A stretch of DNA of 62,882 bases, the filler included, from Kipferlia bialata (Eukaryota): NCBI GenBank assembly GCA_003568945.1. It is 4 parts of 4 records of this genome, joined end to end, with 100 filler letters (N's around TTAATTAATTAA, not from the genome) between each part and the next. Parts side by side here need not be neighbours in the genome. Positions count along the whole stretch, not along the records: positions 59,871 to 62,882 come from BDIP01000450.1; 3 more parts are not named here. One strand, given 5' to 3'. Below, in pieces: positions 59,871 through 62,420 of the stretch. The position numbers were made by a program, and so were the translations under genes. The notes under the pieces were generated by a model. It was not told the DNA's origin, searched no databases, and was given only the letters and a program-made list of their open reading frames with translations. Position 1 is the stretch's first letter, and the number at the start of each line of letters is the position of its first letter.

Positions 59871-60219
59871 AGAGAGAAAAAAAGGGTCAGCCCCCCCCCC
59901 CCCCCCCTATTTGACTCTTATCTGCATGGGAAATGGGTCTCTCTCTTGCTACATATATGGATATATACTTCCTCTTCTCTAACCCAGCAGGTCTCCCTCT
60001 CTGATATTTTATATTTGTAAATATGTATGCACTATATACACCACACTAAACATTAATACATTATTATACATCTATTGTGTTTCATCTATATATATAAGTA
60101 ATATATAAGTATTCCCTCTCTAATGACAGTGGCCAACAGGTCTCCCTCTCTGATATTATATATATATGTGTACTATTTTGTTTCATCTATGTATATAAGT
60201 ATTCCCTCTCTTACGACAG

Positions 60220-60661
60220 TGGCCAGCAGGTCTCCCTGTCTGACGACTACTGGTACGTGGATGACAACAACTTTACCCTTGATGTCAACACGGACATGGA
60301 CGGAACCAGGAACTGCATGGTCGGTGAGTACTCTTCATAGTTTATATGGTGTATATACATATGTATATATATACTATATATGTATATATATTGAGAAAGT
60401 GGAAGGGGGGGGGGGGTCAACACGGACATGGACGGAACGAGGAACTGCATGGTCGGTGAGTAATGTATATATGTATAGTATACATATTTATATATATATA
60501 CATATATTAGTGTTGGTGTTATATGTATATTATATATATATATATGTATGTATGTATATAAATATTAATAACTAGGAACTGCATGGTCGGTCACCCTTTT
60601 AGTGTCACCCCCAGTGATATTTGACACTGACTCTATTCTCTCTCTCTCTCTCTATTCTCTC

Positions 60662-60703
<42 letters not shown>

Positions 60704-61242
60704 TCTCCATCTCTCACTCCAGTGACCTTTGATACCGACAGCTCCCTTGGCGGTGACGACGGATACACTGGTATGTATGGTTATATATGTATGTCTATGT
60801 ATATTTGTATATACCAGGTATGTATATATATGTATGTGTATGCATGTGACGACGGATACACAGGTATGTTTGTGTATATATGTATGTGTACATATGTACA
60901 TGCGCATATATATACACATATATGTGCCCATATATATATATCGGATACACTGGTATTTATATATATATACATATACCTCAATCTAGTTTTCACCTGTGAC
61001 TACTGTGACGACGGATACACAGGTATTAATTAGTATATATGTATGTATGTATCCTCCCCATCTCTATGCTTACTCTAAGCTTCACCTGTGACTACTGGAC
61101 AAACGACTACATAACTCTCTATGTCTCTCTCTATGTATGTATGTATATATGTATGTGTGTGTGTCTATGTATTTATATATGCTTACTCTAGGCTTCAGGT
61201 GTGACTGCTGGACCAACGACTACATCCCAACTGATTACTTCT

Positions 61243-61276
<34 letters not shown>

Positions 61277-62420
61277 GCTTACTCCAGGCTTCAGGTGTGA
61301 CTACTGGACCAACGACTACATCCCCACTGACTACTTCTGGCTCTACTGGTTCGTGGGATTCTTCACCTTCCTCTGCATCCTGTCCTGCGCATGCTCCATC
61401 TCTAGAAGGTATGTTACTACGCGAGATATACTAGTTATATATTCTACTATTTACTACGCGATGATACTGTTACTAACTCGCAGGAGAAGGAGGAGGCGTG
61501 CCATGATGATGGCCGGTGCTTACACTGCCATGCCATACGGCGGCACTCAGGTATGTATCGGGTATAGTATGATTATATATTCTACCTAGTGCATACATAG
61601 CAATGATATTGTGTATATCTGTGTGCTAAGCTTACTCTATTTTTCACTTTGAAGTGTCCATCCTGACCCCCAGATGCCTGCTGTGTACAACGGCAATGTG
61701 GTCAATGCCGGAGTGGCACCCCAGCAGGTATAGACAGTATATATATATGTATAGATAGATATACATAGTATATATGATATGTAGTGGAGTAGATACACAG
61801 TGTACATTCGAATGTATACACATATGTGGTCAATGCCGGAGTGGCACCCCAGCAGGTATAGATATATATATATATATAGATATAGATATATGTATAGATA
61901 GATACAGATATAGATATATATGTATATGTATTATGGGATGTGGTCAACGCTGGTGTGGCACCCCAGCAGGTATGGGCATATGGAATGTATTGATATACAT
62001 ATAGTATACACGTATTGACATATATACTTAGTATATAGACGAATATATATATACACATATGTGGTCAATGCCGAAGTGGCACCCCAGCAGGTATAGACAT
62101 ATATTCTAGTGTATATAGATATATATGTATTGTATTGTAGTATATCATATCATTATCTGAGTAGGTATATATCCATCACTATGTTTGTGTAGCACCTCAG
62201 CTGGTACAGAGAACTAATAATAATTGGGAGAACTGATAATTATTCATGTTCATATATTGTGTGTAGATAGGTATAGAGGTATTACTTATGTGTATCATAT
62301 CGTTGTCAGAATGTATTTGTCCATCTATATACTAGCCGTACTTCTAATATCCCTCACCGTCAGATGGGCGGGTACGAGGCTGCCCCTGTCTACACCCAGA
62401 CTGGATACACCACATACTAG
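60220..62420 (+). CDS. Single-pass membrane protein, 5' partial (acidic ectodomain, TM, Cys/Arg juxtamembrane stretch, Tyr/Pro tail)
   Basis: GQQVSLSDDYWY..NCMV|VTFDTDSSLGGDDGYT|GFRCDYW..FWLYWFVGFFTFLCILSCACSISR|RRRRRAMMM..|MPAVYNGNVVNAGVAPQQ|MGGYEAAPVYTQTGYTTY-stop. Confidence 0.8.
61698..62210 (+). repeat. Intronic tandem copies of an exon end plus donor (VVNAGVAPQQ|GT)
   Basis: GTGGTCAATGCCGGAGTGGCACCCCAGCAG|GTAT at about 61698 (real), 61826, 61940 and 62061, with a remnant near 62190. Confidence 0.9.

What the first reader, a model, noticed from the sequence alone, without database searches (positions are those of the whole stretch)
59985..62210. Third replicate: echo arrays at most junctions of the single-pass membrane protein gene
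Seen: copy near 60130 has CAG>CAA, CTG>CTC, GAC>GAT (all silent); copy near 61192 has CCC>CCA, GAC>GAT silent and TAC>TGC; donor-side copy at 61940 has AAT>AAC, GCC>GCT, GGA>GGT (all silent) while 62061 has one replacement. Several intact decoy donors (CAG|GTAT, G|GTGAGT) follow the real ones. Divergence ranges from identical to remnant, suggesting repeated events.
Basis: partly seen in the sequence, partly recalled or inferred. Interest (0 to 1): 0.7.

Follow-up and report, generated by a model that had tools for sequence, protein, structure and literature searches.

The report
Splice-junction echoes from divergent alleles
In a gene of the free-living protist Kipferlia bialata, short copies of exon ends with their splice signals sit in the neighbouring introns and differ from the real exons mostly at silent positions, so they are likely leftovers of recombination between very different versions of the gene, which would be indirect evidence of genetic exchange in a group where sex has not been observed.

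Summary
The gene is Kipferlia bialata KIPB_002622, a single-pass membrane protein cut at the contig edge. Twelve exon-end copies beat every non-cognate control; 6 of its 11 junction sides carry one. Across four genes, 16 exon heads lie in the upstream intron, 15 tails in the downstream intron, none on the wrong side: junction-straddling tandem duplications. Spliced RNA contigs from two samples use the last acceptor and first donor of the one exon tested. The new point is the silent bias: 55 silent versus 30 replacement differences; 0 of 960 simulations of neutrally decaying copies reach that, and decoy splice signals also changed mainly at tolerated positions. No close paralog or second allele was found. 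Most likely echo and exon descend from different working haplotypes brought together by recombination (0.5). Rivals: minor in-frame use of decoys, fast silent change in the exon, assembly artefact. Junction-spanning repeats are known (human F7); this coding signature was not found in my searches. Sex and record diversity are inferred, not shown.

The parts
60220..60323 (+). Exon A (first exon left on this contig), real acceptor and donor
   Evidence: RNA contigs X2 and X3 lie on 60217-60323 with no other letters; right loose end is the start of exon B
59984..60004 (+). Distal acceptor-side echo of exon A head (partly deleted)
   Evidence: score 38
60104..60153 (+). Acceptor-side echo of exon A: intron tail, AG, 24 nt of exon head; 90 nt before the real acceptor, in frame and stop-free; taken as a false first exon (ATG 60123) by the deposited model
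60416..60462 (+). Donor-side echo of exon A tail (40 nt, one silent change) with intact G|GTGAGT
   Evidence: skipped in RNA contigs
60570..60591 (+). Second, shorter donor-side echo of exon A (weak donor)
60604..60631 (+). Remnant acceptor-side echo of exon B (AG at 60613-60614; 108 nt before the real acceptor, in frame, stop-free)
   Evidence: below the search threshold; placed by hand
60723..60770 (+). Exon B
60846..60869 (+). Donor-side echo of exon B (ACT>ACA), 93 nt after the real donor, in frame, stop-free
60942..60958 (+). Short donor-side echo of exon B
60987..61028 (+). Chimeric 36-nt pseudo-exon: AG + exon C head fused to exon B tail + GT; in frame, stop-free; trace of a whole-intron duplication
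61061..61112 (+). Acceptor-side echo of exon C, AG lost at the aligned position
61178..61248 (+). Acceptor-side echo of exon C (57 nt; 2 silent, 1 replacement), 96 nt before the real acceptor, in frame, stop-free
61288..61408 (+). Exon C, holds the transmembrane segment
61484..61550 (+). Exon D (no echo)
61674..61727 (+). Exon E
61824..61862 (+). Donor-side echo 1 of exon E, identical over 32 exon nt
61938..61975 (+). Donor-side echo 2 of exon E, three silent changes, donor GTATGG
62059..62097 (+). Donor-side echo 3 of exon E, one replacement; shares its breakpoint flank with echo 1
62187..62209 (+). Decayed fourth echo of exon E with donor GTACAG
62364..62420 (+). Last coding exon F with stop
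24470..29209 (-). MFS transporter gene with echoes in 8 of 13 introns plus the upstream one (comparison gene)
54494..56093 (-). UPF0047/YjbQ gene with echoes in 4 of 4 introns (comparison gene)
50842..54118 (+). Phospholipase B gene, 1 echo in 18 introns (contrast gene)

Best explanation
The echoes are head-to-tail duplications of about 80-130 bases that straddle exon-intron junctions, skipped in the RNA of the one exon tested, and echo and real exon end likely descend from different working haplotypes brought together by recombination. Shown: geometry, splice-site use at exon A, silent bias. Inferred steps: (1) a duplication leaves the mRNA intact when the spliceosome takes the first donor and the last acceptor, so only junction-straddling copies survive and pile up, lengthening the intron; (2) the two copies carry different alleles, either because break repair copied from the other haplotype and ended by microhomology joining out of register, or because the copy arose identical and the real exon end was later swapped by ordinary recombination or conversion while the echo stayed frozen; (3) the echo then decays neutrally (random replacements, lost GT/AG, microsatellite erosion). 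This needs silent diversity near 0.2 between recombining haplotypes.
For: Geometry 16 head-upstream, 15 tail-downstream, 0 wrong side, 0 non-adjacent among 33 alignments. RNA contigs of two samples join exon A's first donor to exon B's last acceptor; deposited models use the same junctions as mine in this gene (5 of 5 internal) and the MFS gene (13 of 13). Silent bias: 29 copies, 55 silent/30 replacement, unique 50/26, pN/pS 0.17-0.20 against 0.5 expected, p 2e-6 to 7e-5; 0 of 960 simulations under four mutation models reach 65% silent (means 37-48%); junction-anchored on 30 hand-listed copies 49/15, differences at codon positions 10/9/53; this gene alone 13/4, p 0.0005-0.003. Without gene models, 86 of 145 mismatches fall in one phase versus 77 by chance, 46 of 5000. 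Decoy acceptors and donors score far above the same number of random changes (0 and 43 of 10000). Three silent states at single codons (ACC/ACG/ACT; GTC/GTT/GTA) need more than two sources. Replacement changes are no more conservative than random (p 0.62), as expected for a later neutral phase. No close paralog as donor: both proteins are one-member clusters, nearest relatives 35-39% identical. Fornicates lack NHEJ and Rad51A and keep two Dmc1 (PMC8516963, passages); Dmc1 stabilises mismatched heteroduplex (PMC6719624, abstract).
Against: No second haplotype was seen: RNA contigs of two samples have 0 other letters over 107 bases (may be one strain), and two metagenome scans found no relative. 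The diversity required matches the highest on record for a eukaryote, about 0.2 (PMC9305300, passage). Among silent differences the real exon has the G/C state 21 times against 9 (p 0.04), whereas two random alleles should be symmetric. With a looser alignment the bias weakens (62/54, pN/pS 0.28-0.33, p 0.001-0.017) and in the YjbQ plus phospholipase genes alone it is not significant (12/12, p 0.12-0.25). The hand list left out the most decayed copy (55481, 6/8). In this gene 5 of 6 nearest decoys are in frame (p 0.018, post hoc), which favours some use in cis. The splice-signal test is ungapped and its matrices come from 40 donors and 43 acceptors of these same genes.
Confidence: 0.5

Rival explanations
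1. The echoes are still used in cis: decoy donors and acceptors (and the 36-nt cassette) give minor in-frame isoforms or tolerated leaky splicing, so protein-level selection acts on the copies where they are.
For: In this gene 5 of 6 nearest decoys are in frame and 4 are also stop-free, all on the extracellular side; the 60987-61022 cassette has AG, GT and an open frame; GT kept in 13 of 15 and AG in 13 of 15 copies; 11 of 15 decoy donors and 10 of 16 acceptors score above the 10th percentile of real sites.
Against: In the MFS and YjbQ genes only 5 of 13 nearest decoys are in frame and 2 are open, yet the MFS gene has the strongest silent bias; the exon E copy with three silent changes is out of frame behind stops; 40% of random 66-nt intron stretches are stop-free anyway; RNA contigs skip the decoys at exon A (contigs drop rare forms). 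An inserted duplicate peptide would hardly be under codon-by-codon selection.
Confidence: 0.15
2. Plain neutral duplications from the sister chromatid plus survivorship; the silent bias comes from the real exon changing several times faster at silent sites (codon or GC selection) than the echo mutates.
For: Real exon holds G/C in 21 of 30 strong/weak silent differences; GC3 is 0.63-0.82; some copies are identical or carry only a replacement (61824, 62059, 28447), as sister-derived copies would.
Against: Equal rates give 37-48% silent; 0 of 960 simulations reach 65%, also with AT bias and transitions. A five- to eight-fold faster silent rate 100 bases from an identical sequence has no mechanism that I can name other than allelic exchange. 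Echoes differ from each other at silent sites too.
Confidence: 0.15
3. Assembly artefact: haplotypes of a heterozygous or mixed culture were stitched in tandem.
For: Allelic differences would be silent-biased; the window has two identical overlaps around N gaps (11991-12074, 26848-26941), one inside an echo array; no DNA contig could be laid across an echo.
Against: Echo breakpoints join intron to mid-exon with only a few shared bases, and the longest exact run shared by two copies here is 39 nt, too short to mislead a short-read assembler at usual word sizes (recalled); 94% of 313 sampled 31-mers occur in separately assembled contigs of run X1 (possibly the source sample, so not independent); three states at single sites; no second allele among proteins; lost GT/AG and random replacements are not features of live alleles.
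Confidence: 0.07
4. The donors were paralogous genes or whole duplicated exons (mutually exclusive exons) that later decayed.
For: Whole-exon copies with silent differences exist elsewhere in the window (38247-38655); the protein belongs to a small Kipferlia family.
Against: No head downstream or tail upstream in 33 alignments; paralogs are 35-39% identical, far too distant for pN 0.03-0.05; MFS protein has no close paralog.
Confidence: 0.05

Closest known systems
Human F7 intron 7 37-bp VNTR spanning the exon 7-intron 7 border (PMC1557585; abstract and Discussion read)
   Same: Tandem copies carry functional-looking donors; only the most upstream one is used.
   Different: F7 copies are identical minisatellite units at one junction. 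Here units are 80-130 nt, occur on both donor and acceptor sides at many junctions of several genes, and differ mainly at silent sites.
[quoted passage not shown]
   Same: Same geometry: exon tail, donor and intron start duplicated head to tail.
   Different: In FGG it breaks splicing and causes disease; here the mRNA at the tested exon is normal and copies accumulate.
Intron gain by tandem/segmental duplication (PMC3265369; abstract)
   Same: Local duplication reshapes intron structure in one step.
   Different: No new intron is made: the copies fall inside existing introns and lengthen them (median 284 nt for 16 echo-bearing versus 86 nt for 24 echo-free introns; confounded with gene).
Exon echoes in a sea-urchin gene (earlier AI finding e1-7787398; unchecked)
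   Same: Exon ends copied head to tail into neighbouring introns.
   Different: About one exon end in six there versus about half here; the lines shown mention no silent bias.
WBP-1/VOPP1-like small single-pass proteins (Pfam PF11669)
   Same: One transmembrane helix, Cys near the membrane, basic stop, Tyr/Pro/Gly-rich tail.
   Different: Score 21.8 is below the 28.1 cut-off; the acidic ectodomain matches only Kipferlia proteins.

Membership tests
Junction-spanning tandem repeat with silent pseudo-sites (F7 type) | Repeat unit includes exon end and splice site, head to tail | tested here: met
Junction-spanning tandem repeat with silent pseudo-sites (F7 type) | Only the exon-proximal site is used | tested here: met
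   exon A only, two RNA contigs; other junctions rest on deposited models
Junction-spanning tandem repeat with silent pseudo-sites (F7 type) | Near-identical minisatellite units | tested here: not met
   copies diverge, with different breakpoints; TRF finds no such array in this gene
Junction-spanning tandem repeat with silent pseudo-sites (F7 type) | Copy number varies between individuals; pseudo-sites activate when the real site is lost | not testable with these tools
   no second isolate found; needs minigenes
Intron gain by tandem duplication | A new intron is excised between the two copies using an internal AG|GT | tested here: not met
   spliced models are complete without any intron between copy-internal sites
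Duplicated mutually exclusive exons | Whole exon copied with both splice sites; remnants on either side | tested here: not met
   0 whole and 0 wrong-side copies in 33 alignments; the 36-nt cassette is a head-tail chimera
Recursive (ratchet) splice sites | AG directly followed by GT at the decoy | tested here: inconclusive
   true for 12 of 31 listed decoys, mostly because the real junction has it; not general
Recursive (ratchet) splice sites | Splicing intermediates ending at the site | not testable with these tools
   only contigs available
Pfam WBP-1 (PF11669), for the host protein | Score above the curated cut-off | tested here: not met
   21.8 bits against 28.1

The most novel reading that the evidence does not exclude
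Kipferlia introns are an archive of other alleles: each exchange between highly divergent haplotypes, repaired by Dmc1-only recombination without NHEJ, can leave the displaced exon end behind as an echo. One genome would then prove genetic exchange and record-level silent diversity (0.2 or more) in a metamonad, and show a genome-wide route by which introns grow.
Probability: 0.35. Interest if true: 0.82.

Novelty: new variant of a known kind. Interest (0 to 1): 0.62.

Why it matters
[quoted passage not shown] If echoes are frozen alleles, recombination and population diversity can be read from a single existing assembly with about 125,000 introns (PMC5874029, section read). The arrays are also thousands of potential natural tests of splice-site choice by position in a reduced spliceosome (87 of 174 proteins searched, PMC6679479, passages), they offer a concrete route for intron lengthening, and they mislead gene prediction (the deposited start of this protein is built from an echo).

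Tried and rejected
No whole genome is held, so nothing is genome-wide: four hand-modelled genes only. Only 457 bases of the finding (59880-60336) were laid with runs; DNA run X1 gave only short chance pieces there, so there is no direct DNA test. No listed holder is on record as RNA; X2 and X3 are taken as RNA because their contigs leave the genome exactly at exon ends and go on into the next exon. Metagenome scans with P0007 and P0008 found no relative (32 and 65 pattern hits, 0 confirmed). ESM Atlas hits were under 0.9 and uninformative. Idea that a whole exon with flanks was inserted into a broken exon in one event (head and tail echoes abut exactly in MFS exon 3): 7 of 22 exons have both versus 5 expected (p 0.10), no overlaps (p 0.085), one exact abutment (p 0.23); not supported beyond a lead. 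General in-frame spacing: 10 of 19 nearest (p 0.065), 3 of 10 distal. Inverted echoes: 1 hit, a CT repeat. Silent and replacement density per copy are uncorrelated (rho 0.14, p 0.47). One search had two coordinates off; one search corrects them; one search had one off, corrected. Literature searches for this pattern (titles and abstract starts only) listed no paper on junction echoes in Kipferlia or on silent-biased echoes; subscription papers and all supplements were not seen. Earlier-finding look-ups by place found nothing, nor did the first word search.

Full report
Setting. The window is four contigs joined by 100-base spacers. The finding lies at the start of the last contig. Exon C matches hypothetical protein KIPB_002622 of Kipferlia bialata at 100% and an exon of the comparison gene matches a K. 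bialata MFS protein whose contig length, 22,204, equals window 22316-44519. K. bialata is a free-living fornicate with 124,912 GT-AG introns (PMC5874029, section 12 read). No whole genome was available.

Gene model. Six exons (60220-60323, 60723-60770, 61288-61408, 61484-61550, 61674-61727, 62364-62420) splice by GT-AG into an open frame identical to residues 7-155 of the deposited protein: acidic ectodomain, one hydrophobic segment (77-95), Arg run, Tyr/Pro/Gly-rich tail. It is below the cut-off for Pfam WBP-1; its only relatives among 1.84 billion representatives are three K. bialata proteins at 35-39% identity. The 5' part of the gene is off the contig. Acceptors carry a TNAC branch-like motif 6-9 bases from the end in 36 of 43 cases, like the fused branch/acceptor of other metamonads (PMC6679479, passages).

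Observation. Exon ends (55 nt) of four hand-modelled genes were aligned to adjacent introns, with 4662 non-cognate pairs as control (maximum 28.5). Thirty-three alignments scored 30 or more: 12 in this gene, 16 in the MFS gene, 4 in a YjbQ gene, 1 in a phospholipase B gene. Whole exons against all introns of the same gene gave 16 heads upstream, 15 tails downstream, 2 internal, none on the wrong side or in a distant intron. That is the geometry of head-to-tail duplications with one break in the exon and one in the intron. Echoes are patchy: 15 of 22 introns in three genes versus 1 of 18 in the phospholipase gene; a blind scan finds 5.98, 1.08, 0.14 and 0.13 repeats per kb in the four contigs. 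Echo-bearing introns are longer (median 284 versus 86 nt; confounded with gene). Whether junctions are targeted or merely the survivable place was not resolved: intronic copies would be low-complexity and hard to see.

Splicing. Only 59880-60336 was laid with runs. One contig each from X2 (depth 608) and X3 (another sample, depth 3.7) covers 60217-60323 without differences, continues on the right with the first 30 bases of exon B and on the left with an exon not found in the window. So the last acceptor and first donor of exon A and the last acceptor of exon B are used; the decoys at 60130, 60456 and 60615 are skipped in the main form. Contigs drop rare forms. The deposited model's first six residues come from an ATG inside the 60130 echo and conflict with this RNA. 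Decoys often look usable: 5 of 15 donors and 4 of 16 acceptors score at least as well as their real site. Choice by position, as shown for the human F7 repeat (PMC1557585, abstract and Discussion), is the likely rule; it is inferred here.

Silent bias. If an echo drifts freely while the exon accepts only silent changes, pN/pS should be 0.5 and 38-43% of differences silent. Observed, with the N-gap overlap copy (26886) dropped: 29 copies, 55 silent and 30 replacement; counting each distinct change once 50 and 26; pN/pS 0.17-0.20. Stricter trimming gives 33/14, looser 62/54 (p 0.001-0.017). This gene alone gives 10/4 (p 0.005-0.017), the MFS gene 28/10, YjbQ plus phospholipase 12/12 (not significant). 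Simulations through the same detection step (4 mutation models x 4 divergences x 60) gave means of 37-48% and never reached the observed 65% (0 of 960). A junction-anchored count on 30 hand-listed copies (leaving out 59984, 60989, 55481, 52425, 27345, 26886 and adding 60615, 60953, 25151) gave 49/15, with differences at codon positions 10/9/53. A model-free phase test agrees more weakly (86 of 145 versus 77, 46 of 5000). Decoy splice signals changed mainly at tolerated positions (acceptor score 96 versus 24, 0 of 10000; donor 58 versus 31, 43 of 10000; ungapped, so indels inflate this). One donor has three common forms in its array (GTACGT real, GTATGT and GTGAGT echoes). The replacement changes are not conservative. 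The reading: a long phase in which both sequences worked as exon ends, then a short neutral phase.

Mechanism. Two sequences can both work and yet end up in tandem if they sat on different haplotypes. Either repair of a break copied the junction from the other haplotype and finished by microhomology joining out of register, or the duplicate arose identical and the real exon end was later replaced by recombination while the echo stayed frozen. Gene conversion between neighbours without allelic recombination would not favour silent differences (my reasoning, not simulated). Three silent states at single codons call for more than two sources. No donor is present now as a close paralog or second allele (one-member clusters). 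Fornicates lack NHEJ and Rad51A and have two Dmc1 (PMC8516963, passages), and Dmc1 stabilises mismatched joints (PMC6719624, abstract); this makes exchange between divergent sequences plausible but is not evidence that it happened. The cost of this model is silent diversity near 0.2, equal to the eukaryote record (PMC9305300, passage), or hybridisation between cryptic species, or old allelic divergence in a polyploid followed by loss of heterozygosity; sex is therefore one step beyond the data. Against it: zero differences in a second sample over 107 bases, and a G/C excess on the real side (21 versus 9). I give it 0.5.

Rivals. Use in cis (0.15): 5 of 6 nearest decoys in this gene are in frame, 4 stop-free, and a 36-nt chimeric cassette is open, but only 5 of 13 in the other genes; this may be a filter against frameshifting leaks rather than the cause of the bias. 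Faster silent change in the exon alone (0.15): fits the G/C asymmetry, lacks a mechanism. Artefact (0.07): breakpoints are novel intron-exon joins, the longest exact repeat is 39 nt, X1 holds 94% of sampled words (not independent); two N-gap overlaps in the window are artefacts, but those are identical copies. Paralog or whole-exon decay (0.05): geometry and distances exclude most of it.

Novelty. Junction-spanning duplications are known (F7; FGG, PMC9052919 passages; intron birth by duplication, PMC3265369 abstract), and an earlier AI note reports echoes in a sea-urchin gene (unchecked). Their density here and the coding-type divergence of copies that are no longer coding were not found in six searches (listings only; supplements not opened). 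Verdict: real, a new variant of a known kind, interest 0.62.

Noticed in passing
window 60123-60139: The deposited start of KIPB_002622 (MTVANS) is read from an ATG inside the acceptor echo; RNA contigs show a different upstream exon, at least 264 nt more in X3.
   Followed up: yes
window 60987-61022: 36-nt chimeric pseudo-exon (exon C head fused to exon B tail at a shared GTGAC-like word), AG and GT intact, in frame and stop-free; possible cassette exon.
   Followed up: partly
window 38247-38655: Three exon-like copies; two are whole, bounded by AG and GT, and differ mostly at third positions: probably a working tandem exon repeat.
   Followed up: partly
window 11991-12074 and 26848-26941: Identical overlaps on both sides of short N gaps: scaffolding artefacts; the second inflates the MFS exon 7 array by one copy.
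   Followed up: yes
window 28447-28152 (minus): Head echo (first 41 nt) and tail echo (last 30 nt) of a 71-nt MFS exon abut exactly; would fit insertion of a whole exon into a broken one, but chance is 0.23.
   Followed up: yes
window 29209-29117 (minus): Acceptor echo of an MFS exon in which a TCTCT word has grown into a (CT)n run and which ends in a new CCCAG|GT donor.
   Followed up: no
window 61626-61647: Intron 4 holds a 22-nt stretch 82% like the exon C acceptor region (family D19); out-of-place remnant or chance.
   Followed up: no
window 29595-30301 (minus): The deposited MFS model (608 aa) has about 150 N-terminal residues that look unlike an MFS and may be a prediction error.
   Followed up: no
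window 54494-56093 (minus): Intron-containing UPF0047/YjbQ gene; exons 2 and 4 have echoes on both sides, exons 1 and 3 none.
   Followed up: partly
window 34958-35044: Ten-base tandem repeat, 8.7 copies.
   Followed up: no
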